Positions 17,391 through 64,000 of a stretch of 64,000 nt of DNA are shown here, piece after piece. The notes under the pieces were generated by a model. That model made no database searches. It had not been told where the DNA came from and was given only the letters and a program-made list of their open reading frames with translations. How positions within the stretch are numbered: position 1 is the first letter of the stretch; each line of letters begins with the position of its first letter. Made by a program: the position numbers and the translations under genes. Source of the stretch: Lingula anatina (Eukaryota; Animalia; Brachiopoda); NCBI GenBank assembly GCA_051362555.1, contig CM120642.1, forward strand, positions 21,576,001 to 21,640,000, in the 5' to 3' direction.

Positions 17391-17399
17391 GATGCTATG

Positions 17400-17635
17400 T
17401 TAAGTCCAATCCTATTCTCATTATTATACATGTAACCTGTAGAAAATATCATACTTTAACATGGTCTGAACACTGTCATTTTTGCAGCTGACATACAAGT
17501 TTATGTTACATGCAAGAGCAACCAGTCTGCAACAATCACTCCTATGGAGGATTGTCTTGCAGAGTTTTCGAGTAATGGATGAAAGTGAACATGTTGGCTT
17601 TAAATGATACTAAGGTCGAGTTGATATGGTTTACA
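17400..17635 (+). pseudogene. Decayed reverse transcriptase fragment of an L2/CR1-group LINE
   Basis: Reads SPILFSLLYM*PVENIIL*HGLNTVIFAADIQVY...MEDCLAEFS, frameshift, WMKVNMLALNDTKVELIWF. These are degenerate GPxLF / YADDxQxY / WMxxNxLxLNxxKTE motifs. Confidence 0.75.
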
Positions 17636-21400: not shown

Positions 21401-23034
21401 GATTAAGGGAAAAATAAAGTAAGGGATTGTGTGCTGGAGTAATGTTTGCAGGTACCTTCAACACTATTTAACATTTTATGCAGGTTATAATGTCCAAATT
21501 CAAATTTAAAGTAACGCTTATAAAACATTTTTAGGTAAAGATGGAGCAATCATGTCAGCAATGAAGTCCGTGTACTGGCTAGTTCAAGAGGGCATAGCAT
21601 TTCGAAAGTTTGGAAGCCTAATAGAGTTGCTACGGCACCTGGATTGCCCCAACCTTTCATACTTAGACCAAGGAGACAATGCAAAGTATAATTCTCATAC
21701 AGCAGGGTGGGATATGGTTGCTGCTATTGCTGCCACAGTTGAGGAAGACTTGCTTCAGAAAATGAAGTCTTCACCATTTCTAACAATACTAGCAGATGAG
21801 AGCACTGATATAACAGTAACAAAAAAGTTGGTTATATGTGTCAGACTTTTAGATGATAACTTTGTTCCTTCTACCCACTTTGTAGCCGACATAAATGTCA
21901 CAGATGGCAAGGGTGCCACAGTTGCAGCAGCTATCAAAGACCATCTTAAATCAAAGGAGATCCCCCTTAGTAAGATATATGGTTTTGGTTCTGATGGTGC
22001 AGCGAGCATGACCAGCATGGGAAATGGAGTTGCAGGCAGACTGCTTGCTGAAAATCCTGCGATGGTTCACATACACTGTATTGCCCACAGATTGGCTTTA
22101 TGTACTAGCCAGGCAGCAAATGCTATAGACTATATGAAGGACTATCAATCAACTATTACCAGTATATTTTATTACTTTAAAGCATCATCTGTCAGGGTAA
22201 ACAGAATCACAGCTATTCAGGAGCTGCTGGATGAACCTATTTTAAAGTGCAATGAAGTCCATGAGGTTCGATGGTTGCCCTACTACAAAGCAATAGAAAC
22301 AATCTACAGGACTTATGGGTCATAAGTGTCCTATATGTCTGAAATGGGGGCAAGTGATGCCAAGGCAAAAGGTTTTGCAAAGAAACTTTCACAATTCAGT
22401 TTTGTTTTTGTCACCCATATGCTTTTGTCCATCCTCAGCATTGTCACAGAGCTATGTTTACTCTTCCAAAAGAAAGATCTTGACCCAGCCTTGGTGGATG
22501 TTAATGTGAAGCATGCATTGAGAGAACTGCAAAAGCACAGGGACCATGCCACAAGTAGTGAAGGGTTGTCTGGTAAACCTGGCAGCTACATCGAGGAATT
22601 TCTCCTGAAGGTGGGAACAGGTCAATGTAAATTCTTCAGGGACCACCTTCTGACTTGTTGTGCTAATTATGAAAAACAATGCAAGGCAATTTAGTGTCAA
22701 TTTATTGACAATCTCATTAACAACATAAATGCCAGATTTCCCCAGGATCACTTGGATATGGTAACAGCATTTGGGTATTTGAGCATGAGACCACTAAGCT
22801 TTTTGTCTGAGTCAGAAAGAGAAAATTTGGGTTAAGTCCCTATACAGAAACTTGCTAGCCATTATGGTAACATTATTGAACATCATGGGTCCAAATCAGT
22901 GCCAATAATAATTGAAAAACAAGGTATGAGTGAATGGTCTAAACTTGAAGAATTGGTTTTCAGAATGGGGTATGCGAGAGATGCCACCTGCAAACTGTGG
23001 AGCATTATCAAAACACACCATAGTGAAGACTTTC
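18440..23034 (+). pseudogene. ZNF862-like hAT transposase pseudogene, 2 exons (18440-18884, 21535-~23034)
   Basis: Exon 1 has a TTF-type zinc finger (FQKKWRDTYKWLVY..MYCS*C..FFQGTNNFRTSTLMRHETSNDH). A phase-1 GT-AG intron (18885-21534) joins in frame. Exon 2 has ADESTD, GFGSDGAASM, HCIAHRLAL and EVRW. In-frame stops at 18641, 18722, 22323, 22692 and 22833; C-terminal dimerisation region absent. Confidence 0.88.
19170..21358 (+). mobile_element. Helentron-type non-autonomous element, family 2, copy A (inside the hAT transposase intron)
   Basis: 5' T-run, palindromic tgtacagacacagatgtgtctgtaca, (gtcgcc)n microsatellite, ~160-bp internal repeats, then 3' subTIR tgtctgtacat, hairpin cagc-ttt-gctg and ttgtt. 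Confidence 0.82.
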
Positions 23035-46361: not shown

Positions 46362-46480
46362 AAAGCATCACGCGCTGCGACCCAGAGCAAGAGTCTCGAT
46401 TCCATAACCCCCATAAGGGGCGAGTATGGGTGAGTTATGGAATCTAGACGCTTTTGCTCGGTCACAATGCGCAATGCTTT
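46362..46480. repeat. Imperfect ~120-bp inverted repeat (fold-back)
   Basis: aaagcatcacgcgctgcgacccagagcaagagtctcgattccataac pairs with gttatggaatctagacgcttttgctcggtcacaatgcgcaatgcttt. Confidence 0.7.
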
Positions 46481-46865
46481 GGAATTACGGGACCCTGTTC
46501 TGTCGAAGAGCGAGAGCCATGTTCATTTAAAAAACTAGTAAAATACTACGGAAGCCGACTGGTGCCATATGTTGAAAAAATTTTTTTATCTCGAAATTTC
46601 GAGATAGCATTTTGAAATTTGAACAAAAAAAATTTCATCTCGAAATTTCGAGGTAGCATTTTGAAATTTGAATTAAAAAAAATAATAATAGATAAAATAC
46701 CCACAATGCATGAGGGATGTGAAACCGGAACTACACGAGAAAGCCTCATGCTTTACATTCATTCATCTTAGCCTATCTGTTATGCCCGAAAAAGCTGTTT
46801 TTTTGTAGAGTCACATAAATTTGACCAAAGGGACTCAATTATTTCTGCCAACGGGAAGTAACGAT

Positions 46866-46945
46866 ATGGACCAGGATTTGGAAGACTTCATGAGGGGAAG
46901 AGGGATTAGCGACACCCAAATTAATAAGCTATATTGGAAGAAAAG
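46866..46945 (+). pseudogene. Probable first exon of the HECT gene (SAM-like start), apparently frameshifted
   Basis: MDQDLEDFMRGRGISDTQINKL..LEEK followed by donor aag|gtatgt. The 80-nt length does not fit the phase-0 HECT exon, so either a 2-nt insertion or missing middle exons. Confidence 0.45.
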
Positions 46946-49392
46946 GTATGTTTAGACACGTTTAGCAGCAGAATTTTTTGGATTTAAAGGAAGCACTACT
47001 GCAGTAGTTAGAATCCTATATCGTTATATCCTATATCGTTAGAAACCTATAGTATATTGTAAAAATATACCAGTAGTACGTGTTCTTTCCTCAGAATGGA
47101 GTGCATACATTGTACTGGTACTACATGTAGTACTCCCATTGGGGGTAGTGATCACAGTTCACGGGAAGTAAAATTCACAAATCACAGTGAATAAAAAAAC
47201 TAAAAATTTCGAATCACCGGGTATAATTATCGCATTCCACGAAGGTCACAGAATAAAAAGTTGCATTCATGTGTCAGGGAAATGGGGAGCTTCACAGATG
47301 GGACCTTTGTTTACCTCTGACATTGATATCTGAGCAAGAGATAAAAGGCACTCTGAACTTTTTGTTTTATTATACTGATTGTCCACCAAATTATTCTAGA
47401 ATAACCATCTCAGTGTTAATACAAACATGTCAACCATTGACGGACCTATTCCCATACATTTTTACGCAATGACACAACCAGCCATCCAAGGCTCCTATCC
47501 AATTTTATAATTCAGGGCTCAACATAGGTACTGGCATTACTTGCCTGGTGCAAAAAAATCTGATCAAAAAACACCTCACTGACTTTTTTTATTTTATATC
47601 CATTGATGTTTTAGTGCTCTCCACAATATACTCTCACTCCACCCTCTATATCTCACATTATAAACAACCCTTTATGCATTAATTTATTTTACTGATACAA
47701 ATGTTGTTCTCCAAATTTTTGGTGTGTTTATTCCTCTGTATGTGAGTGATGTTAAGGCAAAAAAAAAAAAAAAAAAAATTAGGATTAAAAAAATAATAAT
47801 TTAGGAAAAATAGTAAAAATTAGTAAGCATCTGGGAAGGACGTGAAATGGACATGGAATTTTAACGTTCAACTTTAACACCAAAACTCTGCTCTGTCTGT
47901 GGAGATATTCTAAAAATCAAAGCAAAATATAAATATTTGATTATTTCTCTTTCTAAATATGTGTAAAGTGTATTTCCAAAATTTTTTTTAATTTGAAAAT
48001 TTTGCAGATCTATATAAAAATCAAGTAGGCATCTGGGAAGGACACATTTGGGAAGGACATTTTGTCCATTGCTAAAAAAATGTGAAACAAGGCTAAATAG
48101 AAATATTTAATGATATATTTACTGTGCCAAGATAAGTTTGATGAATGACATCAAAAGTAAGCAGAGTCTTCTTTGATCATATATTTCATCACCAAACATT
48201 TGACTATTTTTGGCTATGATAAAAGGTCTCATCTTCTATGATTATGATTGAATAGTATTGTGACATTTTATAGTAAGTCTAACCAAATTCATTGATTAAA
48301 ATTTTATATATTGTCTAGATTATAATAATTTCAAAATTATTCATTCAAATGAAATGTTTCAAAGTTAAAAAATATTTGGTAGATAATTTAAAGTTCTAGA
48401 TTATCTTGAAAAGACATAAGGGTTTGGGTGTCATTGGTCACATGACCTCTTATTGTCCTATCAAAATGCCTCATGCCCTAACAAAATGCTGGGTGTTATT
48501 CTGAAATGATTATTAATTTTTATTTAATTTCTCATTGAAATGTTTCTTATTAAAATTTCTTTCATGGGTTGTTGACCCATGTCATGTTTGAGGAGAATGT
48601 GAAGTGAAAAATTTTTAGCTTTTGTATTACTGAGAAAGCTTAAAAAATACCGGTAGGTACCAAAATCATCTAGGAAGGACAAATTGATATTAATTAATCC
48701 ATTATTTCCTAATTAAATAAATTTTCATCAAATGCTCTTGGCCAAATATGGGAAATAACCTATATTAAATGTCTTAAGCCTTTATTATTAAAAATGATCA
48801 ATATTTTGAAAACCATATCAAAAATAAAAATGTCCTTCCCAAACACTATTTTATAATTTTTCCAGATAAAAGTGTCAATAAAGTCATAATTAATCATCAA
48901 AACCTAAAAATTATTTTGGATTCTGGTGTCTTGGGATGTCTGATTTCAGAAATTGTAAGTTTTGTAAGTAGCAGTCTTTTTTGAAATTTTAAGGTCTGCA
49001 GACCAAATACCACGGAATGGCCCTTAAATAAATTTTTAAAAGCACTCCACACGCCACAGGCAGCAGTGACCTACTTTTGGTATGAAGCATGTGTAAACAA
49101 CTATGACTGTGAAAACTAATTACTGTAGCCATGTATAAAATGATGTGGTCTGTGCCACAGTGTGGACACCTTCAAATGGTGCAAAGGCAAATTTATTTAT
49201 ATAACAGGCTGAGATAGTAACACTTTATCTTAAAAATACATAGCCATTCCACATTTTGCAATTATGGCAAAAGTAATGTATTACTAAGTGGCTTAGCTGT
49301 GAACAGCCTTTTAAAGATACAAGTAAATGTTTTTGTGAGTGTCAGTGTACATGCCATTTCCCTCCATTAATAACATTCCTTTTCTATTGCAG

Positions 49393-50700
49393 ATGGACAA
49401 GGAAGTGGTGACACCTGCAGAAACAGAAAATCCATCAACAATGCCTATAGAAATGTCACCTGCCCAAAAGAGTGATATTCAGGATTCACAAGATTTCCTT
49501 GATTCGCCAATATGCTTTGAAGGTCATTATACTGATGGTGAAATCTCCTTTTATATACCAGTACACAGTGAAATGCCAATACTCACAGAAGCAGAAAATG
49601 CTACTGCTGTGGTGGTAGACGATGACACCATGCCACAGAATGAAGGGCCTTCTGTTGTGTCTATGGCCGCATTGAATGATGCAACAACTGAAAAAAGTCC
49701 ATATTCTGTTCAAATGATAGTTCACATGGGGACATCTTCCTTCTTTGAAGTTATGTCTTACTTTAAAGATCCTGAAATATCAGATAAACTCATAACAATC
49801 ACCAGGATTCTAAGTAATGGTGAGAGGGAAATAGCAGAAGATACTGGGGGAGTTCTCCGCGACGTGCTGACTGAATTTTGGCAAACTTTCTACCAAATGT
49901 GCACGGTTGGCCGTGAAGTTAAGGTTCCTGCTCTACGCCATGACCTAGGTGAAACTGAATGGCAGGCAATTGGCAGAGTCCTTCTGTATGGGTTTAAGTA
50001 CACTGGGTACTGGCCTATCAAGCTTTCAAAAGCATTTCTCTTTTCAGTCATCTGTAGTGATGAGGAAGAAGTCAAATCATGCTTGCTTGAAGACTTTTGG
50101 AAGTTTGTACCAAAACAAGACATGGAGGTTCTTCACCAGGCCTATGAAAACTACACACAAGTTGATGAGGATGAATTATTGGACTGTCTAGAGACATATG
50201 AATGTAGAGCAAAACCAAAAGAAGACAACATCAGATCTGTAATCCTTGAAATTGCACACACGCAATTGATCCAAAAACCAACATTTGTTGGTAATTGCAT
50301 GAGGGAATGTCTCTTGGATGCAAAGATTAACCCCAACAAAATTGAGGAAATTTACAGCAATGTTTATCCCACTTCTCGAAGAGTGATCAAGTCTTTCAAA
50401 TTTCCTGAGTTTATGGATGCAATGGAGTCAGAAGTTGCAAAACACATTAAAAGATATGTCAAAGACGCAGATGGTGACAAATTAGGACAATTCCTAAGAT
50501 ATTGTACAGGATCAGATCTGTTAACAGTGCCGCAGATTTCTGTGGAATTCTCATCTCTCACTGGTTTTCAGAGGCGCCCAGTAGCACACACATGTGGGTG
50601 TGTCCTCCAACTACCAAGGCTGTGCGAAAGTTACATGGACTTTAGGTACGAATTTGATAACATTCTAAACCAAAACATATGGGTTATGGACATTGTGTAA
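49393..50700 (+). CDS. HECT-domain E3 ubiquitin ligase (G2E3-like), uninterrupted terminal exon, transposon cargo
   Basis: Acceptor ttgcag|ATG, then 435 open codons. HECT motifs AEDTGGVLRDVLTEFW, GYWPIKLSKAF, FLRYCTGSD and RRPVAHTCGCVLQLP (catalytic Cys codon 50593-50595) near the C-terminus. Confidence 0.85.
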   Translation: MDKEVVTPAETENPSTMPIEMSPAQKSDIQDSQDFLDSPICFEGHYTDGEISFYIPVHSEMPILTEAENATAVVVDDDTMPQNEGPSVVSMAALNDATTEKSPYSVQMIVHMGTSSFFEVMSYFKDPEISDKLITITRILSNGEREIAEDTGGVLRDVLTEFWQTFYQMCTVGREVKVPALRHDLGETEWQAIGRVLLYGFKYTGYWPIKLSKAFLFSVICSDEEEVKSCLLEDFWKFVPKQDMEVLHQAYENYTQVDEDELLDCLETYECRAKPKEDNIRSVILEIAHTQLIQKPTFVGNCMRECLLDAKINPNKIEEIYSNVYPTSRRVIKSFKFPEFMDAMESEVAKHIKRYVKDADGDKLGQFLRYCTGSDLLTVPQISVEFSSLTGFQRRPVAHTCGCVLQLPRLCESYMDFRYEFDNILNQNIWVMDIV

Positions 50701-52584
50701 GCTACAAACTAAAGAAGAAACTAATGCCTCGATATACATGTAGACTGTCCAAAAGTGAAGCAGTATTAATATCTGGATTGTGCCTGGTTGTTTCTGACTT
50801 TTGTTGAAAAGGGAAGTTGACATTTCATGGTCATTAAGGTAAATGGGACGTGAAGCTTACTCTAAATATGATGTTGAACAGAGCTGCAGTTTTTCCTTGT
50901 TTTTGAAAGTGCATTAAGCCTGTTTCATTTTACACTTGTACTGCATGTAATGGGATCCTTCTTTTAGTCAGCGAGGATTTAAGACACTTGGTTTATGTCT
51001 GACAAACATTTTTATACTGGTTTTTATGTTCATATGTGTAATTTTCATTAATAATTTTCTCTTGTGATCAAACATTGATGATAAAAGTGTGATCATGCTA
51101 CAAAACATAATGAACTGTTGGTTTTAAAAGTGCTTTGTAAGTTTATGCAAGTTGCAAGTGATTTGTCTATTTTTGTTAACACACCAAAGAAGTACCCTTT
51201 GTTCCATGTTGTTAAAACGTGTTATGGGCATTGTCATAATATTATATTATAACCTTTGTGCTCTGAACCTCACTGTTCATGTCTCTTGTTGATGGAATGG
51301 AATATCCATATCCTGGTCAGTCTGATACATATAATGCTTGCGTTTTTAATTTCTAGTTTGATTTAGCCAAATTTTCTGCTTTTCATTTTACACTTATATT
51401 ACATGTTATGGTAGAGCTCTTTTGGTTAACCAATATTTCAGACACTTGGCTGATATCCAATAGAGATATTCTAATATTGCTTTTAGACACTTGGTTAATG
51501 TCTGACAAACATATTTTGATATTGATTTTTATCTTAATATAATGTGTAATTTACCATAATAATCCTTTTCCCTTGTGATCATACAATAATGATAAATTCA
51601 AAAGTTTAATTTCTGAATCACAAAAGAAGTGTCTTTTGTGCATTGTTTTTAAAACATTATGGATGTTTTCATTATAATAGCAATCTTTGTGCTCTACACC
51701 TGATGGTAGACCGGGTGTTTTTCTTTTTGTTAATAAAAGTTACACTAATAAAATGATTTTTTTTCACTTTTATTTTTGTTTTGGGGTCAATTATAGAGTA
51801 AAAGTTGAATAATATATTGGATATCAATCCAAGGATCAAACTGTGGGTTAAAGTTTCATGCCAGGTATGTGTCATAGCGCAAATACTGAGAGAACTATCA
51901 ATTTTACTGTATCACCCAACTAATTTTCAATATACATGCACTAGCACTTTATATTTAAACATGATGAAGAATGTTACTCTCAAAAAAAAAAAACAAAAAA
52001 AAAACAGCATTGTCAGATTACCTTTACATAAGTTATTCCCAAACAAATTGCAGAAAAAATAAATACATGACTGTAATTCATAATTATCTAAAATGTTTAT
52101 TTAAAATCCTGATGATAGAAGTAGGACTGCGCCAGACAATGAAAGGATTTTCAATGGAATGTTCACTCTTGATTATACATGTTTTTTCTAAAAATTACAT
52201 CAGCAAAAGTCAGTTCTATATGTTTGTGTTGAAGTTCTAAGGTAAGTTGACTTAAATATTATGTCAAAAGGTAGTCCATGCAGTATGTTTTTGTTATCCT
52301 AGAAAACTAATTTAAGTCATGATAGTGACTTTTCATAATAATAGTAATACTAATAATAACCGGCATACTATTAAGTTTATCTCAGCAAAAAATACTGATG
52401 TTCTGTGTCTTGTTGTACTGCATGGCCTGCAGATTTTAGGGCTGTTCTGTTTTTACACTGTACTCATTATTTGTTATCATGAATAAAGTTTATAAGTAAC
52501 ATGACTTGATATGCATTGATCATCAAGACTTCCCTGAACAATCATTGTTACTGCGACACAGCTGATATGTACCAATGCGACACA

Positions 52585-53497
52585 CTATAGATCCTGTCGA
52601 ATAGCTAATCGCAATGCATGGTAAACCTGCTGTGCCTACTGTACATTGGTAGGAAAGTCCAAAAAAAGTTCAGCCATGTAAATATTGAAGAGTTCAAATA
52701 ATTCTTCATCACAGGGAAGGCCATCCCTGAAGCTGCATTCGGTTAAACATGCTTCGATATGTCCTTGGTTGACTGGTCGCAGGTAGTCTCGTCGGCCATA
52801 CAATTCTGGCATAGAGAACAGAACGATTGGTCTTCCATTGGGAACGTTCTGATTCTTTGTGCGTCGTATGCGGTGACAGTTCCATACAGACGTGACCCTA
52901 TCCAGATCAGTCTATTATAAATATAAAGAAAAAGAAAAAGGCTATTTTGTTAATTAGCATACAATTTACCACAACTCAAAACTGACATTACTTAATATTG
53001 CAGTCACCATTCAACTACACCCTGATGATTATATGCAGTATTGTATTTGGAGATGTTTTAACATCTAAAACTATTTAAAACATTAAAACTATTTAACGCC
53101 ATTATGTGAGATTAAAACAAAAAAGAAATGGATTCTCGACTCTTAGAAAGACCCAGTAAATATAAGAAGCGCTAAAGTTAATTATGCATTACCAACAATC
53201 AATTAGTCTCATTTCAGCAGCCGAAACAGATAGAACTATAAAATGCTTTAATACCTGGACCAAAGTCATGAAGCAGAATTGGACGAGGCTTGTGTCTAGC
53301 GGGTCTCCTGCAAAATCCCCAACATCCTTCAATGCTTTCAGAACATCCATCCAAAATTGTATGCATTCTTTACGCAGCATACACCAAAAGGCTTCAATCC
53401 GCTGGTTGTGAGTGCTCCGCCCATAAATAAAGCTATTCTGCTCCGACAAGAACTCTTGCATCTGTGCTACATGACCGTTCTCGGTTCCCATGTCTCC
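52585..53497 (-). pseudogene. Integrase-core (DDE) transposase, last two exons (53497-53255, 52911-52585), 5'-truncated
   Basis: GDMGTENG..YGRSTHNQRIEAFW..CFMTLVQ, GT-AG phase-0 intron, then TDLDRVTSVWNCHRIR..PNGRP..PELYGRRDYL..RQDL*. Premature TAG at 52636-52638; region with the first catalytic Asp not found. Confidence 0.82.
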
Positions 53498-53986
53498 TTA
53501 GTTCAGATTTTATCGTTGATAAAGCAAAATGACACCTTTGTTTACTAATAATCTGTACTCAAGGCCTCATGGCTCTATAATAAAAGCATTTAAACCAAAA
53601 TGATGACACCGGATTGTAGCCTACATATATACACTCCTGGTCAGCTCTAACAATTTCGTGATAAAATCTAGTTCAGGGACGAAATTACTCTTCATACCGA
53701 TTGCTAATAAAAAAATACAAAGGTGTTAAATTGACGATTAAAGCTTTGAGTTGCCTATGCTATTGAATATACATCGAAAAGAAAAAATATAAAAACCGAT
53801 ATTTTACATTTCCGGGAGTTTTTTCATTGTTTCAAATCTGCACAAAGACAGATGCATTATTGAATAATTGGATGCAGGAAAAAACTCTTTCGTTATTAGG
53901 ATGATAACAAAGGGTTACAATGTCCTTAATTTTAAAAACAAGGCGGCAAAGCTATTTTCACAACTGGTTTAAGTGTTATAGTAATC

Positions 53987-54225
53987 TCACCTGTCATCCC
54001 TCTTTCCCTCAAAAATACTTCCAAGCCCTGGTCTATATCTTTCACATCCCTTTGGTGAAATAATTGAGCCCCTTTGTTCAAATTCATGTGACTCTACAAA
54101 CAAAGCTTTTTCGGGTATAACAGATAGGCTAAAATGAATCCTTTGAATGTAGAGCATGTGGTTTCCTCGTGTAGTTCCGTTTTCACATCCCTCATGCATT
54201 GTGGGTATTATTATTATTATTATCA
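53987..54225 (-). promoter_or_regulatory. Inverted paralogue of the left-arm module 46686-46912 (putative promoter and first exon)
   Basis: Shared aatacccacaatgcatgagggatgtgaaa.cggaactacacgag..ttagcctatctgttat.cccgaaaaagct..tgtagagtcacat.aatttga. ATG is changed to ATA and the copy ends in donor cag|gtgag. Promoter function is inferred. Confidence 0.55.
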
Positions 54226-54493
54226 TTTATAATCTGCAGAAGCGACTAAATAATAATTTGCTAGTTTTGATGATTATGCAAAAATGTTATGGCGTAAACG
54301 GGAGTCGTCTTATTCTAGCTGAGGTTTAGATGGTGTGAAAACGCATAATCATTAAAGGTGGGGAAAGTAAAGCGCCGCACCGCGCCGTAAAGCGTCTGAG
54401 CGGGATAGATGTTATATATATCACTTGTAGTTGAGGGGAGGGAGGAGGAAACAAATTTTAAGATTTCTTACCTTAACTTTGTCTATTGTTATA

Positions 54494-54830
54494 TCAAAAT
54501 GCTATCTCGAAATTTCGAGATAATTTTTTTTTTTGTTCAAATTTCAAAATGCTATCTCAAAATTTCGAGATAAAAATTTTTTTTGTTCAAATTTCAAAAT
54601 GCTATCTCGAAATTTCGAGATAAAAAATTTTTTTGTTCAAATTTCAAAATGCTATCTCGAAATTTCGAGATAAAAAATTTTTTTGTTCAAATTTCAAAAT
54701 GCTATCTCGAAATTTTGAGATAAAAAATTTTTTTGTTCAAATTTCAAAATAGTATCTCGAAATTTCGAGATAATTTTTTTTTGTTCAAATTTCAAAATAG
54801 TATCTCGAAATTTCGAGATAAATTTTTTTT
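54494..54830. repeat. About 7 copies of a 50-bp sub-terminal repeat with palindrome tatctcgaaatttcgagata
   Basis: tcaaaatgctatctcgaaatttcgagata at 54494, 54544, 54594 and onward; about 2 inverted copies in the left arm (46585-46680). Confidence 0.93.
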
Positions 54831-55444
54831 TTCAACATATGGCACCAGTCGGCTTCCGTAAAATCCCGACCACAATTCGACAATTCTCTTCATTTGAAAC
54901 GACCAGCAATATTTTTCATGGACCAATAAGCGTGCCGTCACTCTTGGGATAATCTTTCCCGGATATATATTTTGGATAGCTTTTGTTCCATTTGTTAACA
55001 CATCTTCTCTACTGCCCATTTCAATGCACTGCATGTAGTTTGTACATTTATATGGGTTGATAAAGTAAAATATATGCTTACATGGACTTTATGTGTGTAG
55101 TTATTGAAAAAAAACAACGCTTCTAAAGTACAAATATAATTTCTCAACATGTAATCTCTAAAGGTTCTTGAGCACTCGTTAAGGAGAATTTCAGTACGAA
55201 TATCATAGCAATATACGTGTACTTCACCTCTGTAATATCATAGCAATATACATGTACTTCACCACTGTAATATCATAGCAATACACTTCACCTCTGTAAT
55301 ATCATTGTGTTTTAAGGAGGGTGAAGTGTCTTAAGGGTATTATGTTTAGATTAGTGTTATCAATCAAAACCAACGAGTAATGAACCTGCCAAGTTTCCTG
55401 GTCTAGACCATTATGTTCTATAGTGTAAGTTAATACATCACTAA

Positions 55445-55784
55445 GGGACGGCTCATCATTCGAATTGGAGGGGGGAGGAGAAAATGTCCCCCCCCTCCCA
55501 ACCAAAAAATAGCTGAAAAAATCCCTGATAACATTCAAATTTTTCGGGATCTCCCTTCCACATTGATTGAATAACTCGGCCACCCCCTCAATAAAACTAG
55601 TGAAAAAGTAGTGTGAAATTTATATTTTTCACTATGTCTTGTACGACAAGTCACAAAAATTATTTTTCTCAAGAACCCCTTATTATTTTCAAATTTCGAG
55701 ACCCCCCAATATTTGCTCGGAAATTTTCAGGCCCCACATTTTCTCCTCCACCTCCCCCCTCTTACTTAAATAATGACCGGTCCC
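55445..55784. mobile_element. MITE with GGG/CCC ends and TAA TSD
   Basis: taa-gggacggctcatcatt ... aataatgaccggtccc-taa. Confidence 0.7.
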
Positions 55785-55924
55785 TAAGTGGCGTTTCAGC
55801 CGGTGTCATTCCTTTTCCACCGCTTTCCCACGCGTTCACATATCTATTGATAACTTTTAACCTTCCTGGTTGAATCGATGCCATGTTATGAGTACATCGT
55901 CATTGGAAACGCAACACAGATGTA

Positions 55925-56499
55925 TACATGGTGGTCCATAAAAAACTACCTATATAGCTTTCCATCTCAATTTTGATGTACATATAATTAAGATATTCCC
56001 AACTTTCTTTCGCCAAATTTTTCCATAAATACGATTATTTTATCCTTCCACATTCTGCAAAAATTGGAAAAGTAATCAAATTTCAATTGATAATGTGTTC
56101 TATCCACACTCCTCTCTGCTGAATAACGACGGCCACACTAACGTTGAAATTTGCATTTGCTATTGTAATCATGTCAGCCGGACTGTTCCTTACTTTGTCT
56201 CGAATGTTAGTCTTCAGAGAGTCTAGAGTTTGTGGCTTTTAAACAGAAAATTTCCTTAAGGTGACCCCCAAAGGAAGAAATCTGGGGGGTTGAGATCTGG
56301 CGAATAGGGTGGCCAAGGAAAGTCCGTGCGGCGTGAGATGATGATGATTGAAATTTGACTACCTTAAAGGTATCAATTTCTGCAGAATTTGCAAGGATAA
56401 ATTGGTCATCCTAATGGAACACTTTGGTGAAATAAAGTTGGATATATCTTATTTATATCAAATTTGAGATGGAAAGAAATAATTTTGGACCACTCTGTA
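55925..56499 (-). mobile_element. Internally deleted Tc1/mariner-superfamily element
   Basis: TIRs tacatggtggtccataa and ttttggaccactctgta. Minus-strand relic ISRRTDFPWPPYSPDLNPPDFFLWG..KPQTLDSLKTNIRD..QQRGVWIEHIIN* (~56340-56083). Confidence 0.85.
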
Positions 56500-57303
56500 A
56501 ATAGTGGAGATTGAGACAAACATATTAAATTAAGCTTCTGTTCTTCGGGATAAATAAATATTAAGTAGGTTTTCTCTCTACATTTGTTTTAGGACCATTG
56601 TGAATATTGCCTGCAATATACATAAAAAGAAAAATCATACAAACTATATCACTCATATCATTATCGGTATTTGTTGTGTTAAATACATTGTCAGTGGGAC
56701 ATTGGGGCAAGGCAGTACATGGTAGGTGGGTGTTCACTTTCATAGAGGAAATTACACTTTTGGCGACGTATCCATAGAGATCAAGTTCTTGTTCAAAGGG
56801 TCTGGGGAGGAAGGGGGACTTTCTTCTGTGAGCGCAATAGTGTGTCTTTTTGACCTTTTAGAATGGTTGAAATAAGTTCACCGCATCTGACCCTGCATGT
56901 ACGCACGCGTTTACAAAAAGGGTGGATAAAATAATTCATACATAAAGCATAACGAGTAGGATGTTGGTATCTGGTGCATATTTTTTAAATACACATAAAG
57001 ATCGCTATGGCAAAGTATAAACATTTGGGTGGAAGAAAAATAACTTAATTGATTAAAAGAAAACCGTTTTTCTTTTTCTTTTTTTTCTGAATTAGAAAAA
57101 ACAATGCTTGTAATGTTATATTTTAAACTATTGTCCTGTGGTGTCTCGTTTCAAATTTGAATAAACGTTTTCAGAGCGTCGATCCCTAAGTCAGCCAAGA
57201 TAGAAATGTTGATCTTCTAACTCTCCTTCTTGATAAGATATACTTTTCATTGGAAGTATAACGATAAACTAGATGATTAAATAACCTCACTCGAAGGAGA
57301 GAC

Positions 57304-57715
57304 ATGGAATCGACCGGAGTTGGAGGGAAATTCCTCTCCGTCTTTTTCATAATTTTCGGGACTCTTTCGGCGATTTCAAATGCTTATACTGTCATATATA
57401 CCTCGCCTACCACGGATTTGACGTTACGTTTATCAGATCAACCGTTCCACGTCAACAATTCCATCCCTGTGCCGCCAGGGGTAACGCTGAATGTAGAACC
57501 TGGCGTTACCGTTAAATTCGGCCCGGCTGTCGGTGTGCGCGTTGAGGGACGGCTTTTGGCAGTGGGACAACCGGACAAACGTATACTTTTCACGGCTGCA
57601 GACGAACCTAATGTTGAAAGGGATGATAAGCAGCCACCTATTTGGTTTGATGGTGCACGATTGGCCGGGGACTTCACGGAAAGTCATCATGGACGCCTGG
57701 AACTTTTATACCAAG
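57304..57715 (+). CDS. Bark beetle/anakonda-like SRCR protein, coding exon 1 (signal peptide, N-terminal beta region, SRCR start)
   Basis: Hydrophobic leader; PFHVNNSIPVPPGVTLNVEPGVTVKFG..VEGRLLAVG..ILFT; ARLAG..GRLELLYQG; donor aag|gtatct; UTR acceptor at 57174. Confidence 0.85.
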
Positions 57716-58381
57716 GTATCTGCAGAGTAGAAATTACTTTCTTTGTGTTTTTGGAGCGTTTTAACTTTCTTTTTTATATTTTATTTATTTATATTTCTTT
57801 TTTTGTAAGTTACAAAATGTTAATTATGTGTTACAACCCTAGTTTTCATTATTAGAAAATGACGGAACAAAACTCTCACCTCGAAGTTGGGGGAATGAAA
57901 TCCGTCTACATTTCCTGCAAAGCAATTAATATTTCCCAATTCAGACCTTACAAACTGTTACAACAATAATTGGTGCTGCCCAGTTATTTAGAACTATGTC
58001 AAAAAATTAAAAATTAAATTTATGTTCTACGTCGGATCCAAGTGCAGTCGAGAAATGTTTCGTCAGGGGGAGAAAAAATTATTCCCTTCGAACATAAATA
58101 TTGGTAAACCACATAAAGAGTACATGTAATCATTATTTGGCTTATTATCATAGGAGCCTAGTGGATAGGGGCCAAAGCGAAATTACTATCCCTTCTCACA
58201 TATTTAAATACATCAGTTATAAATGCAAGAGTCTCACCCCTCCCCCCCCCCCCCCACGACCACAGACAGGCGTTATTCTTTATTCGTTTTGAATTATTAG
58301 CCCCCATCTGACTTTCTACTAACCTGAATATTCATTTCCACAAATGTTTGTTAAAGAGTACGTATAATTTTCCCCTTTCAG

Positions 58382-58606
58382 GTAGTTTTGGCACCGTTTG
58401 TCGGAATGGCTGGGATAGCTCCTACTACTACAACATCAACAACAACAACAGAGTTGTTGCTAGGATGTTGGGATATAAAACATGTACCAAAGTATATAAC
58501 AGAGGCAGTGGCACTGGAAGTATTCTTCTGAACAACGTGAGATGCGATGGACATGAGAGCTCCCTCTGGGACTGTCCTCACGATGGGGTCCGTGTGCACA
58601 ACTGTT
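58382..58606 (+). CDS. Bark beetle-like protein, coding exon 2 (SRCR core)
   Basis: tttcag|, phase 1; GSFGTVCRNGWD..VVARMLGY..GSGTGSILLNNVRCDGHESSLWDCPHDGVRVHNC; |gtgagt. Confidence 0.9.
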
Positions 58607-59699
58607 GTGAGTATCTTACTGACCTGTTATCTTTATTCATGTATTTACTACTTTTGAGAACTATGATATTGCAATTGTGTAATCTTTTATAATAGCCTAA
58701 GGCCAACGTCAGGGATGTTTCTTTGTTTGGTGATTGTCAGAGTGATCTATCACGAAAAAATTAAACTTAATAATCAGGCCCTTTTTTCACTGCTAACCAC
58801 AGAAAAGATAAACTCGACACTTTTACAGACGACTGTGTCTACATCATTTATATTAACCTAATTTTTTGTTTGTTTATTTGTCCATTTTATTTCGAACATG
58901 AAAGTTTGCACATGTATTAAATGGAATATAATGTAAGTTCAGGTATTAATATCACTAGTATTTTGTCTTTAAGTGATTGCAAAAGTTCTCTTTGTGCAGT
59001 GTTTGATACATTCCTGACAACCGGAGGAAGTTAGACAAACTTAATTAGTTAGACAGTCAGACAGACCATTTTACCAAAAAAGACAAAAAGTGAACTGTGG
59101 TCACAAGTCTGCTAGAATGGAAAACAACACAAATCATTTTCTATTTTACCAGTACCGATGATGGAATTTGGACCATTTACTCCACGTACGACATGCGCTC
59201 ATTCTGGTCGGTTTCAAATAGCTGTTGTTGGTACGTTCTTAAACATTACGTACAATGTGGGCATGGGTGCTATATACCGATGTCAAATGTAGGAGGTTGA
59301 CCATTTGATTTTTATCAGGTAGTTTGTAAAGGGTTATCATGATTTCTATACCGCTCTGTTATAATATGTATTGTGGCAGATCCAGGAGGTTGCTAACAAG
59401 AGAGGGGCGTCAACATAAGTATCAATAAATTCTGCCTGGTTTCTCGTGGCAATATTCAATGTTAGGCTAAGGTAACATAACTGTCATATATACCGTACAG
59501 GTATGGAACATGCTTGTTTTAAGAAAGGCCTGCCCTGTTCACCTGAGCTTCAGGTTACCCTGTCCTTGGGTATGTCTTTGCATGGGAACCAAAATGATAA
59601 AGTATCATACAGTTATTGTCTGTCTTTCTGTGGTTAGTAATCTATAGCTAAGATGGAGATATGGTGATATCAGTTTACAGTTAGAACAATATAGAGGAG

Positions 59700-60010
59700 C
59701 TGAATGTCAGTTTGGACCGGCCTGACAGGAATGGCAGTCCGTTAGGAAGCGTAGTCCTCTCCCCGTTATTTTGTACAGATGACATTCGTCCCACCTGCCC
59801 AAAATGAATGAGTAACTCTGTTTGCTTGCTGTGAATAAGGTCAGTTTGACATCGTGACAAGCGTGACAGGAATGGAAGTCCGTTAGGAACCGTAGTCCTC
59901 TCCCCGTTATTTTGTACACGTCCCATATTCTTACCCTTATACGACGACTAACCATAACCTGTACTAATAATATGGACTTCCATTCCTAAAGGCCCACCAT
60001 TCCTGCCACA
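59700..60010. repeat. Dispersed repeat with internal tandem duplication; relatives at ~46085-46200 and ~61020-61095
   Basis: taggaaccgtagtcc..tttgtacagatgacattcgtccc and ctaacc..aacctgtactaat..atatgg are shared among copies. Confidence 0.65.
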
Positions 60011-61444
60011 CAGTTTTTTTCCTATTTTGCTGACTGATGCATGAAAACAAGGATTAAAATCTGTTTTTATAACTTATAATATCTTTGATGTCATTGTGAC
60101 ATCAGTTCATTAATTGAATTTGCCAGTGAAGCAATTAAAAATGCATTCCCTATTCTAAGTCACACGACAAACATTAAAAACGAGAATTTAGATCTCCCTA
60201 TTTTCCAAATTATCGTCTGTTAAAGAGTAACACGCACCACAAAGGACCCTCATGACAGTGTCTAGTCACAGCAATGGTTGCTATTACACAGTGACCTCAT
60301 CTGGCTCGTACCAAGGCTTTGAAGCGCCAATTAAGGCATTCCTTGGGATAAGTTTTTAGAGTTTCACCAAGAATAACATTCCAGGCATCGGCATCTGTCA
60401 AAACTTGTCCAGTTTGGTTCAGTTTTGTTGTAGGACATATAGGCCGTTGATTCGGCGAGTAATGACCTACCCACTTATTGTCTGTTTGGTTCAAATATGG
60501 CGATTCTAATGAGCAAGGTAGCTGCTCATTTTCTTGGTTCTGTAAGTTATCTGCTATTAAAAGTGCTCTTTGTGAACCGGTAATTTCATTGTGCACCCTA
60601 AAATTGTTCCTAAGGCCCCCTATCAAATGATAGTCAAATGAGAGGCACAGATTTAAAAAAAATGTTTAACACTGCTCAACTCATTTTACGCACTGCAAAA
60701 CCGACCGCTTGCATGCATGATGTCAAATTCTTCTATGCAGTAGTTGCCGTCATATGGATACTTTTTTGACAGAACCATGCTTCGCCTAAACCAATCTTTG
60801 ACCAGCCCAAAGGAGCACTACCCAATTGAATCACTGCATATTACACAATGCAGCATTGCAACAAAGATGGTGGTCAGTTAATTAGTAGCGACACACCTGA
60901 CTACACACTTCTTCATTCACATATCTTATATAAGATTCTTCTACTTTTTGAAAAAGAACGTATTTTTACCTAGGCATGCCTTTGAAAATGAAATGTTCCA
61001 TATCAAAATGTCAAGTCTGTGCAACTAACCCTAGCCTGTACTAATCATATGGGGCCCCTGACATCCATTCCTATAGAACCACCATTCCTGCCCCACCGGC
61101 TCAGACCAACACAACTATCATTATTTATACATAAGTCGAACATAGAGCAACGTTAGATCAACTGTATGATGCACAATCTATTAAAGGGTAATTGTGTTAA
61201 TGAAATTCAGGACTGCAACCTGCTTCCTGCCCTTCACTGCTACCCTAGGTTTTAGATTCCGGTATTGTCAGCTCGATCTTGATTTCATATACATGTATAA
61301 CCCATATCAGCAATACCAGGCTCTAGCGAACACCGTCAAGCTGTGGGCGTTCTTCTTCAAAATTTTGCCTGGGGCGCTTGGAAGCCATAAGTCTCGTACG
61401 TCACAGGTTTGGCCGCCTGGAGCTGCCTTTCCCACCTTGCGCTG

Positions 61445-62425
61445 ATGTTATCTTGTGCTGACGAGACAAGAAGCAAAGTGGCTGATCATGACGCGGAGTT
61501 AGAAGTTTGAATTAAGCATATCTTGCAGTCGAAGGTCAGTGCCAGGAAAACAGTGAATAGAATCTTGAGGAGAAGGGCTGTGACAGGAAATGTGACACCT
61601 GTTAAATCTACGGGTAGACCGCGAAGTGGAAACACCAGAAGTGATCGTGTCATCATTAACCTGGCAAGAAGAAAGTGGACAAAACCTACCAAAGCCAGTG
61701 CCTTGGAGCTACAGGCCCGACGTTTGGCTTGATTGTCTCGCCATGGCTACGCTTCAAGAATAATGGTGGAGAAACCACGCCTGACACCTGCCCATCAAGC
61801 AAATAGGCTGCAGTGGGCGCGCCATAACCGTAACCTCACGGTCCAACATTGGAATCTCGGGGTGTTTGCTGGTGAGTCCCGTTTTCCACTGTATCCAACA
61901 GATGGAAGAATGAGAGTGCGTAGTCTCGTTGGAGAATGGCTGTTGACTGAAAATATCCAAAAAACAATAGCTGGGGGGGTGCCAATTGCAGCAACGGTAT
62001 TTGCCCATTACTTCCTCTGGATGAAAACCTTAACGCTGCCAGATACCGGGACATTCTCCAACAGAACCTGGAGCCGTTTGCAAGAGGGATATACAGACAC
62101 AAATTTTGGATTGCAACATGACAACGCAACTCCCCATACAGCCCGCTAAATTAACGACTATATCTGCCAAAACAAGATTCAGCTCATGCCACAGCCAGCA
62201 AGCAGCCCAGATGTATACCCAATTGGGACAAACTTGGTAGTGCTATTCAAAGGAGAAACCATCCCGATGCAAATTTAGATCAACTTCGAAATGTCCTTCA
62301 AATTGAAAGTACCACAATTCCTCTCCAAAGAGCTGTGGCTCTAGTTCACATGCAGTATTCCACGCCGTCACATGCAGTATTCCGCGACCATTATCCAAGC
62401 TTGCGGTGGAGCATTCCCCCTACTG
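61445..62425 (+). pseudogene. Tc1-like transposase pseudogene in intron 2 of the bark-like gene
   Basis: KTVNRILRR..KSTGRPR..RSDRVI, KPRLTPAHQANRLQWA, VFAGESRF, QHDNATPHTAR, PASSPDVYPI; stops and frameshifts present. Confidence 0.88.
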
Positions 62426-62848
62426 CGATTAATAACTTTGTCTGAAGGGTTTTTATGACAATCTTCCCAAATTTCATCTTGATTGTCGATCACAATACAA
62501 ATTTATGTTTAACTTTTGTTTTGTTACTGTTGAGTAAAAACATACTCATTTTGGAGGGATAAAACCTAAATAAATAAACGCTTTTCTTACATTTGCATTG
62601 TTTGTTTCTCTTTCACTTTCCTAATCCTCCAGCGTCACATATTTAGCAATATAAGCGGTACAATTTTGGTAATAATAATAATTATGAAAGAAACAGGGCG
62701 AAACGTATATCGAAATTTCCGTGTACCAACCATTTTGAGCAAGAGCGTATGTGTAAAATGTATACAAAATAACCTGTGAACAATAACGTGGAGTATACCA
62801 ATTCCCCGAGTTCATAATAGCATGTCGTAATGTTGTTTAATTTTTCAG

Positions 62849-63396
62849 TTCACAGTCAAGACGTGTGGCTGCAGTGTTCAGGTTACTCTGGTTATCGTGG
62901 GATTGCCAACGAAACTGCCAAGTACTGGTCTGGTATAGAGCTGGTGACAAACTCTTCTGTGAAAGGAATAAGTGATCTCCAATATGTCGACATCGAATTC
63001 GCTGGTCTTCCTAACATCGGGACGCACTCAAATGATACAGCAGCCATATCGATTAGTGGAATCCCACCTGTGCTTGATAACCTGAATATCACAAATGTCA
63101 TCGGAAATGGTGTTCTACTCAGAGATATAACTGGACATGCGGCGATCAACAATAGTAGCATTGAGAACAGCATGGGAAACGGGGTTTCCTTCAGAAGCTA
63201 TGGTGGTAACCTGGCACTGGACAATGTCCAGATTTCTAATGCCCATAAAGCAGGTTTATATTACAACAGGACATTTCCGCTGCCCTCCTATAAGATGTGT
63301 CAACTGCCGGAAACAACGGTTCCTGATGGAGAACCGCTCATAGTCAGCTTTGACAGTACTGACCTTCATCTGGGGTCAAAGTCTTCCTGTTCTCAG
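62849..63396 (+). CDS. Bark beetle-like protein, coding exon 3 (SRCR end plus parallel beta-helix repeats)
   Basis: ttttcag|, phase 1, completes HNCFHSQDVWLQC; YWSGIEL, LQYVDIEFAG, LDNLNITNVIGNGV, INNSSIENSMGNGV; donor cag|gtaggc. Confidence 0.88.
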
Positions 63397-64000
63397 GTAG
63401 GCCACTCGATACTTATTAGACCTTTACAGCTCACTGATTTGTTATATTTAAGAATTAGCTTGTTCAACGCGGAGCCTATATTGTAAAAAGAACGTTCCAC
63501 AAAAGTTTCTGGCCATACATCTTTACATTTTGAGTAAATAATCATTCAGCTCAAGCGTTGAATTATTTAAGTACATGGGTAGATTATAGTAGTTACGCAA
63601 GAGACGTTGTTTCATAAAACACGTGTTTTAATTAGCTGTGTTCCATCATATAGGTGTTTCGAAGTCAAAAACCAGGGTATATTTTGGCGGTGCGCGTACT
63701 ATATATAAGGGCACGTTGGTATACTCGCCGTAACGTACTGGATATATTTGATGGAAACAGTTCGTCCTCCCGGCGGCTGGAGAGAGTGTATACGTACGGT
63801 GCCGAGGTAAACATGCCGTCTCCTCTCTACACTACCGGCGGCTCAGTCTTGCTGTCATTTTCACGACTAGATATTGGCTCTAGCGAACGGTATCAAGGAA
63901 TGTTTACAGTACAGTCCGTTGCCGGTGAGTTAACATTAAATTTGAGAAAGAAAACTTTCTCTTGTCTCTTTTCAACACATACAAATGTATGCTTGAATTT

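What the first reader, a model, noticed from the sequence alone, without database searches (positions are those of the whole stretch)
46547..54860. TIR transposon coupling an integrase-core transposase with a HECT E3 ubiquitin ligase
Seen: perfect 34-bp TIRs (TACGG...CCGTA), a 6-bp flank duplication aaatac/aaatcc, a + strand HECT exon with catalytic AHTC, and a convergent - strand transposase with GDMGTEN and GRSTHNQRIE motifs. Known: TAY..RTA ends with a 6-bp TSD and two genes describe the little-studied IS3EU superfamily, as I recall from Repbase classification. Inference: the E3 ligase is native cargo of the element, not a host gene. It may ubiquitinate a host silencing factor or control transposase turnover, making a mobile ubiquitin-based regulatory or counter-defence system. 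Gene predictors would likely mis-annotate it as a host G2E3-like gene.
Basis: partly seen in the sequence, partly recalled or inferred. Interest (0 to 1): 0.85.

Follow-up and report, generated by a model that had tools for sequence, protein, structure and literature searches.

The report
Broken transposon carrying own ubiquitin ligase
This is a broken copy of a cut-and-paste jumping gene in a brachiopod that carries its own ubiquitin-ligase-type gene; the same gene pair recurs in many related jumping genes, so the ligase belongs to the element and likely helps it spread.

Summary
Confirmed, with one major correction. The 8,314-bp element (host Lingula anatina, by 99-100% protein matches) has perfect 34-bp TIRs. 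An empty site lacking exactly 8,314+6 bp occurs in 3 of 4 DNA runs, showing a real insertion with a 6-bp TSD. The transposase is IS3EU/GingerRoot-type.

The HECT gene is native cargo:
- a convergent transposase follows it in 24 of 30 informative metagenome loci, among at least 14 divergent families;
- the two genes are neighbours at 5 of 5 listed loach loci;
- one complete foreign element has a near-identical TIR and a perfect TSD;
- dN/dS is about 0.2 between families and about 0.85 among recent copies.

Correction: this copy is dead. Its transposase lacks the N-terminal half, including the first catalytic Asp, and has a stop codon. Its HECT gene is frameshifted and lacks the SAM and ubiquitin-like domains of relatives. 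Sister copies are transcribed. The ligase's target is unknown; my best guess is the element's own transposase complex.

Ten literature searches found no report of the pairing (Repbase unseen). This scan noted it before in at least 8 other windows. New here: the empty site, the selection pattern, a promoter shared by both arms, and a possible brachiopod-sea star transfer.

The parts
46541..46546 (.). Left TSD copy AAATAC (one change from the empty-site AAATCC)
46547..46683 (+). Left TIR: 34 bp perfect, then two 49-bp subterminal units with a palindromic core
46672..46906 (+). Inner left arm: presumed promoter/5' UTR and first codons of the HECT gene; 85% identical to the inner right arm
46866..46945 (+). 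HECT gene exon 1 (first SAM helices); 80 nt, 2 nt longer than the in-frame RefSeq copy, so frameshifted
46946..49392 (+). HECT gene intron 1 (GT..AG); contains pieces of high-copy repeats
49393..50700 (+). HECT gene exon 2: acidic linker plus whole HECT domain with catalytic Cys (AHTC). SAM/Ubl region missing; probable deletion junction at 49402/49403 (inferred)
52588..52911 (-). Transposase last exon, in-frame stop at 52636-52638
52912..53254 (-). Transposase intron, spliced in RNA reads of sister copies (7 and 13 reads)
53255..53498 (-). Truncated transposase exon with the second D and the E of the DDE triad; deletion breakpoint at 53498/53499
53991..54233 (-). Inner right arm: inverted copy of the HECT promoter/exon-1 start with ATG changed to ATA, ending at a GT donor; likely the non-coding first exon of the transposase
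54494..54860 (-). Right end: 6.8 copies of a 50-bp subterminal repeat and the 34-bp TIR
54861..54866 (.). Right TSD copy AAATCC

Best explanation
This is a deleted, non-autonomous copy of an IS3EU/GingerRoot DNA transposon whose family carries a HECT gene as its own second gene, and the intact protein likely acts as a ubiquitin ligase that helps transposition, most likely by tagging the element's own transposase complex. Shown: insertion with a 6-bp TSD; both genes inside the TIRs and convergent; the same pair across many families; purifying selection between families; both genes broken in this copy. Inferred: each arm's promoter drives one gene inward; the SAM and ubiquitin-like domains recruit the target; the HECT Cys transfers ubiquitin from a host E2; ubiquitination removes or limits the transposase, for example by taking apart the stable post-integration complex. 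Odds: native cargo about 0.95; active ligase about 0.8; transposase complex as the target about 0.45 overall.
For: Empty site lacks 8,314+6 bp in 3 of 4 DNA runs. Triplophysa tibetana: all 5 listed HECT accessions are adjacent to a transposase accession, with one identical HECT at four loci and one identical transposase at four loci. Metagenome loci: convergent rva_4 transposase in 24 of 30 with at least 2 kb downstream and 31 of 58 with at least 500 bp; hAT/Tc1 control queries hit 1 of 80; 20 families at 80% and 14 at 50% HECT identity among 26 pairs. L001 is a complete element with a near-identical TIR start and perfect ATATTG TSD. dN/dS median 0.21 (43 pairs, dS 0.3-1) against 0.85 (45 pairs, dS under 0.08). 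Catalytic Cys in 69 of 69 aligned proteins. Model of relative P0008: HECT Z 23.0 to UBR5, Ubl Z 9.4, SAM Z 7.8. Some clades match in both gene trees. That the second gene of two-gene DNA transposons often serves transposition (Harbinger Myb protein, CACTA TnpA) is recalled, from no call.
Against: No direct evidence on the substrate. HECT and transposase distances correlate only weakly (Mantel rho 0.17, p 0.024, 20 families), with clear discordance, which a tight cognate pair would not predict. The -4 residue is Met in 66 of 69, not the Phe recalled for canonical HECTs. The window protein scores under Pfam's HECT cut-off. Four of the 30 informative loci (L041, L042, L067, L075) show no transposase even by HMM. 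Three of five species checked (Sarotherodon, Phaedon, Astyanax) gave no adjacent accessions; possibly different families were picked.
Confidence: 0.45

Rival explanations
1. Same element and native ligase, but the target is a host silencing or chromatin factor, so the gene is a counter-defence. The SAM plus RAWUL-like pair could dock on Polycomb PRC1.
For: Weak co-phylogeny fits a host target that does not depend on the partner transposase. Rust-fungus IS3EU carry TET/JBP and an alpha-kinase opposite the transposase, read by the author as escape from silencing (PMC12730594, passages). Three of the top Ubl matches are Polycomb RAWUL/ULD domains (Z 9.4, 8.5, 8.1).
Against: Those Z-scores are tied with ATG8/12, USP11 and other beta-grasp folds. 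The family spans molluscs, fish, insects and echinoderms, so the target would have to be very conserved. No substrate data.
Confidence: 0.35
2. The protein is a non-catalytic or non-canonical adaptor (binds E2, ubiquitin or the transposase), like the reportedly non-functional HECT of mammalian G2E3.
For: Very divergent HECT (10-18% identity to solved HECTs); -4 Met; G2E3 HECT described as non-functional (PMC3673628, passage).
Against: Cys, the preceding Thr and several N-lobe residues are invariant in 69 of 69; both lobes are modelled with high confidence.
Confidence: 0.12
3. A host HECT gene captured once, or lying inside the TIRs by chance.
For: GingerRoot elements do capture host gene fragments, 22 of 77 in Selaginella (PMC6839031, results part read). 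The HECT exon is expressed in one RNA run.
Against: Same convergent pair in at least 14 families at 24-72% identity; multi-locus identical pairs in loach; near-neutral decay among recent copies; the empty site removes the gene.
Confidence: 0.04

Closest known systems
IS3EU/GingerRoot superfamily (Repbase; Kojima and Bao 2023, PMC10045372; Cerbin et al. 2019, PMC6839031), subgroup of IS3EU-1_CGi, -1_DR, -1_TC, -2_SK
   Same: TA..TA ends, 6-bp TSD, TIR of 100-150 bp, and transposase core motifs matching the supplement alignment by eye.
   Different: The passages I read mention no HECT or ubiquitin gene (0 occurrences in the main texts). Two Repbase names end in _2p, so a second protein is annotated there; I could not see what it is. 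This copy is non-autonomous.
Rust-fungus IS3EU with alpha-kinase and TET/JBP (Kojima 2025, PMC12730594)
   Same: TAYGG..CCRTA ends, 6-bp TSD, and a second enzyme gene in opposite orientation to the transposase.
   Different: The second gene is a kinase (plus a dioxygenase), not a ubiquitin ligase.
Class IV HECTs: UBR5, G2E3, GL-Metazoa (Grau-Bove et al. 2013, PMC3673628)
   Same: Divergent HECT domain; best fold match is UBR5 (Z 23.0, rmsd 4.2, 319 residues).
   Different: N-terminus is SAM plus ubiquitin-like, not RING/PHD fingers; multicopy, patchy and inside transposons. Placement in class IV was not tested by a tree.

Membership tests
IS3EU/GingerRoot | TA..TA (TAY..RTA) termini with TIRs over 30 bp | tested here: met
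   TAC..GTA, 34 bp perfect, about 134 bp at 90%; definition
IS3EU/GingerRoot | 6-bp TSD | tested here: met
   Empty site lacks 8,314+6 bp in 3 of 4 runs; perfect 6-bp TSD at L001; CATTTT on both flanks of a second site, pairing inferred from loose ends
IS3EU/GingerRoot | DDE transposase of the IS3EU lineage | tested here: met
   Pfam rva_4; sister copy P0195 and Patiria P0286 match the Repbase IS3EU cores motif for motif by eye; D, D, E in 25, 25, 24 of 26 rows, the rest gaps. No tree with Repbase references was built.
IS3EU/GingerRoot | No HHCC motif upstream of the core | not tested
   Feature; that region is deleted in the window
IS3EU/GingerRoot (autonomous copy) | Intact transposase ORF with full DDE triad | tested here: not met
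   First D absent and in-frame stop
HECT E3 ligase | Bilobal HECT fold at the C-terminus | tested here: met
   Model of relative P0008: top 19 VIA rows are HECT structures; Foldseek E 1.5e-10; Pfam HECT in 68 of 69 members at E up to 1. The window protein itself was not folded.
HECT E3 ligase | Catalytic Cys in the C-lobe | tested here: met
   69 of 69; aligned to the UBE3C and Tom1 xxTC motif
HECT E3 ligase | Phe at position -4 from the C-terminus (recalled feature, no call) | tested here: not met
   Met in 66 of 69, Trp at -6 in 65 of 69
HECT E3 ligase | Ubiquitin thioester and transfer activity | not testable with these tools
   Needs an assay
G2E3 | N-terminal RING/PHD-like zinc fingers | tested here: not met
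   The ordered N-terminus of P0008 is accounted for by SAM and Ubl; no zinc-finger family among the 25 of 57 Pfam rows shown
G2E3 | Grouping with host G2E3 in a HECT tree | not tested
   No G2E3 sequence was returned by any search

The most novel reading that the evidence does not exclude
A large animal branch of IS3EU is a two-component transposon whose second component is an active SAM-Ubl-HECT ubiquitin ligase, needed for or boosting transposition. It travels between phyla (brachiopod and sea star transposases are 86% identical sisters), swaps its two promoter-bearing arms as modules, and accounts for many reported 'HECT/G2E3 expansions' in animal genomes.
Probability: 0.4. Interest if true: 0.82.

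Novelty: new variant of a known kind. Interest (0 to 1): 0.58.

Why it matters
IS3EU has been listed in Repbase for over ten years, and a 2025 paper says its structure and function are largely unexplored (PMC11934779, passage). A ubiquitin ligase kept under purifying selection by the element itself would show a selfish element steering protein degradation. Intact, identical multi-locus copies in loach make this testable without repairing anything. It also warns that multicopy 'HECT/G2E3' families read as host adaptations may be transposon cargo. One candidate is the 20 G2E3 copies reported in a hadal sea cucumber (PMC9700323, passages), which I did not test.

Tried and rejected
Contig depth suggests a few long copies and many short ones but is not a copy number. 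IMG/VR scan: 74 pattern hits, none confirmed. No RNA holder was listed; raw RNA runs were laid instead, and no read joint between HECT exons 1 and 2 was listed. The ORF at 48778-48984 as a lost SAM exon was rejected: no tblastn support from 120 relatives (best E 0.35). Run X2 shows little cover over 50950-53400; a hole proves nothing. The atlas feature search gave only a 0.78 lead. dN/dS at dS over 1 (132 pairs, median 0.42) was set aside as saturated; 242 of 3,160 pairs passed the filters and pairs are not independent. Literature: ten searches; IS3EU+HECT gave 0 papers. Kojima's 2020 review is not held and Repbase Reports are not searchable, so the pairing may be recorded there. bioRxiv supplements were closed, and supplements of PMC12730594 and PMC6839031 were not read; they could list further IS3EU cargo.
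Full report
OBSERVATION. The element spans 46547-54860 (8,314 bp). The TIRs are identical for 34 bp and 90% alike to about 134 bp. They run into subterminal repeats, 2 units of 49 bp on the left and 6.8 units of 50 bp on the right. A second inverted segment, 46672-46906 against 53996-54233, is 85% identical over 242 columns. The flanks are AAATAC and AAATCC. In Logan contigs of 4 DNA runs, 3 (X1, X2, X7; one contig each) join 46537 to 54858, skipping 8,320 bp, which is the element plus 6. So an empty site with one AAATCC exists, and the insertion and 6-bp duplication are real. RNA loose ends give two more flanks that each put CATTTT next to a TIR; I infer they are the two sides of one other insertion. 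Joints 46608-54576 and 46609-54775 in RNA reads point to short derivatives that keep both ends.

HOST AND COPIES. The HECT ORF is 99% identical to Lingula anatina LOC106182062 (6 differing residues). The transposase exon is 100% identical to LOC106150459 and LOC106162499. These lie on three contigs of different length, so the family has several copies. No genome was held, so they were not counted.

THIS COPY IS BROKEN. The transposase has only two exons here (53255-53498 and 52588-52911). Residues 1-187 of the 378-aa Patiria relative, including the first catalytic Asp, have no credible match, and a stop lies at 52636-52638. Contigs of three runs continue past 53498 with other sequence (788 letters in X1). 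RNA reads continue there into sequence encoding the residues upstream of GDMG, so sister copies hold what is deleted here. HECT exon 1 is 80 nt against 78 in the RefSeq model. Relatives are 600-730 aa and carry an N-terminal region that the Lingula protein lacks. Contigs end at 49402 in 4 of 4 runs, and the next starts at 49403 in 3; I infer that longer copies hold the missing region there. The small lesions could be assembly errors, since laid reads and contigs mostly show other letters (stop absent in 9 of 9 and 6 of 6 RNA reads). The large deletion does not depend on them.

EXPRESSION. In 4 raw RNA runs (6-25% of each read), the transposase intron 52912-53254 is spliced in X11 (7 reads) and X12 (13) and not in X14 or X17. 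The HECT exon is covered on the sense strand in X14 (depth 2.4-4.2), barely in X12, and not in X11 or X17. Reads carry letters that differ from the window, so they likely come from sister copies. Antisense-oriented reads cover the inner right arm. That arm is a copy of the HECT promoter and first 14 codons with ATG changed to ATA, ending at a GT donor. I infer it serves as the transposase's non-coding first exon, so both genes start from homologous arms. In L001 the inverted arms stop before the genes, so this is a family trait, not a general one.

THE LIGASE IS NATIVE CARGO.
(a) In Triplophysa tibetana the five listed HECT accessions (KAA0706550, 0710797, 0715546, 0719390, 0721623) each neighbour a transposase accession (…551, 798, 547, 391, 622). 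One HECT sequence and one transposase sequence are each identical at four loci. Holothuria (HOLleu_00032/33) and Mytilus (VDI78323/25) agree. Sarotherodon, Phaedon and Astyanax gave no adjacent pair.
(b) Of 105 confirmed metagenome loci the best 80 were kept. A transposase lies downstream and convergent in 24 of 30 with at least 2 kb of DNA and 31 of 58 with at least 500 bp. All 32 loci with a hit have it on the opposite strand; one (L078) is upstream. hAT and Tc1 control queries hit 1 of 80. Of the six misses, L074 has a fragment by HMM and L031 is 99% identical to L077 and ends early. L041, L042, L067 and L075 have none.
(c) The 26 usable pairs fall into 20 families at 80% and 14 at 50% HECT identity.
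(d) L001 is a complete 7.7-kb element with a TIR start nearly identical to the window's, a perfect ATATTG TSD, HECT and transposase.
(e) HECT dN/dS has median 0.85 among close copies (45 pairs, dS under 0.08), 0.29 at dS 0.08-0.3 (22) and 0.21 at dS 0.3-1 (43); 242 of 3,160 pairs passed the filters and pairs are not independent. Constraint between families with decay within them is what a gene selected during transposition shows, not a host gene.

PROTEIN. The AlphaFold model of relative P0008 (mean pLDDT 81.8) has three ordered parts: SAM (residues 2-64, Z 7.8 to tankyrase SAM, below the tool's caution line of 8), a ubiquitin-like fold (103-204, Z 9.4, rmsd 2.3, 80 residues, tied among many beta-grasp domains) and, after a disordered linker, a full HECT (Z 23.0 to UBR5; Foldseek E 1.5e-10). 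The catalytic Cys is invariant in 69 of 69 proteins; the tail is W-x-M-D-I-x, with Met at -4 where I recall Phe in canonical HECTs. A profile search finds 1,262 clusters at 50% identity with E up to 1e-30. It is not G2E3 by architecture; no tree against G2E3 was possible.

MECHANISM. Shown: the anatomy, the linkage and the selection pattern. Inferred: an active ligase (about 0.8). Target: I put the element's own transposase complex first (0.45), because second genes of two-gene DNA transposons often serve transposition (recalled), a self-contained pair would work in any animal host, and some clades match in both trees. A host silencing factor is close behind (0.35): co-phylogeny is weak (Mantel rho 0.17, p 0.024), and fungal IS3EU carry TET/JBP and an alpha-kinase in the same opposite orientation. 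The convergent layout, one gene per arm, would let families swap arms by recombining between the 3' ends, which could explain the discordant trees (inference).

POSSIBLE HORIZONTAL TRANSFER. Lingula and Patiria miniata transposases are 86% identical over 273 aa and sisters at 100/99 support in a 37-row tree; the next named animal hit is 62%. No host-gene control was available, so this is a lead.

KNOWN OR NEW. The element meets the tested IS3EU features. What I saw of each paper: PMC10045372, passages and supplement passages; PMC6839031, passages and the first third of Results; PMC12730594, PMC11934779, PMC10853768, PMC4455052, PMC3673628, PMC9547173, PMC9700323 and bioRxiv 2021.09.26.461848, passages only. 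PMC10853768 describes an ancestral IS3EU as encoding two proteins. None of ten searches found the HECT pairing (0 papers), but Repbase entries and Kojima's review were not visible. This scan has already noted IS3EU plus HECT in at least 8 other windows; those are unchecked AI notes and my evidence does not rest on them.

VERDICT. A real, dead copy of a real and apparently undescribed two-gene variant of IS3EU; function untested. Interest 0.58.

Noticed in passing
window 11800-17400: About 5.6 kb GC-rich (52-55%), strongly AT-skewed tandem array giving many repetitive ORFs; probably satellite DNA.
   Followed up: no
window 21510-22694: hAT-like transposase remnant with a stop (DUF4371, E 1e-6); used only as a control query.
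   Followed up: partly
window 61733-62149: Tc1-like transposase fragment (HTH_Tnp_Tc3_2, E 2e-4).
   Followed up: partly
window 57277-63486: Exons of a probable host secreted protein with an SRCR domain (E 6e-13) and a weak beta-helix match.
   Followed up: partly
window 46362-46480, 55439-55790, 55982-56458: Short inverted-repeat elements beside the transposon, possibly MITEs.
   Followed up: no
window 53500-53900 and 54234-54490: High contig depth and many loose ends: other repeats nested in transposase intron 1 and between the right inner arm and the tandem array. RNA molecules begin at 54362 in two runs.
   Followed up: no
L041:4978-8529: THAP + DDE_Tnp_4 gene with a convergent exonuclease-like gene, directly downstream of a HECT gene; a different two-gene transposon, either an insertion or a swapped partner.
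   Followed up: partly
P0084, P0468, P0167, P0171 (Sarotherodon): Database names such as fumarate hydratase, SLAM family member 8, KRAB zinc finger and neurogenic differentiation factor 6 are attached to these HECT or transposase proteins; apparent mis-annotation.
   Followed up: no
L001, L003, L024, L025, L038, L049, L079: Both ends carry inverted arrays of short tandem units, as in the window; subterminal tandem arrays look like a family trait.
   Followed up: partly
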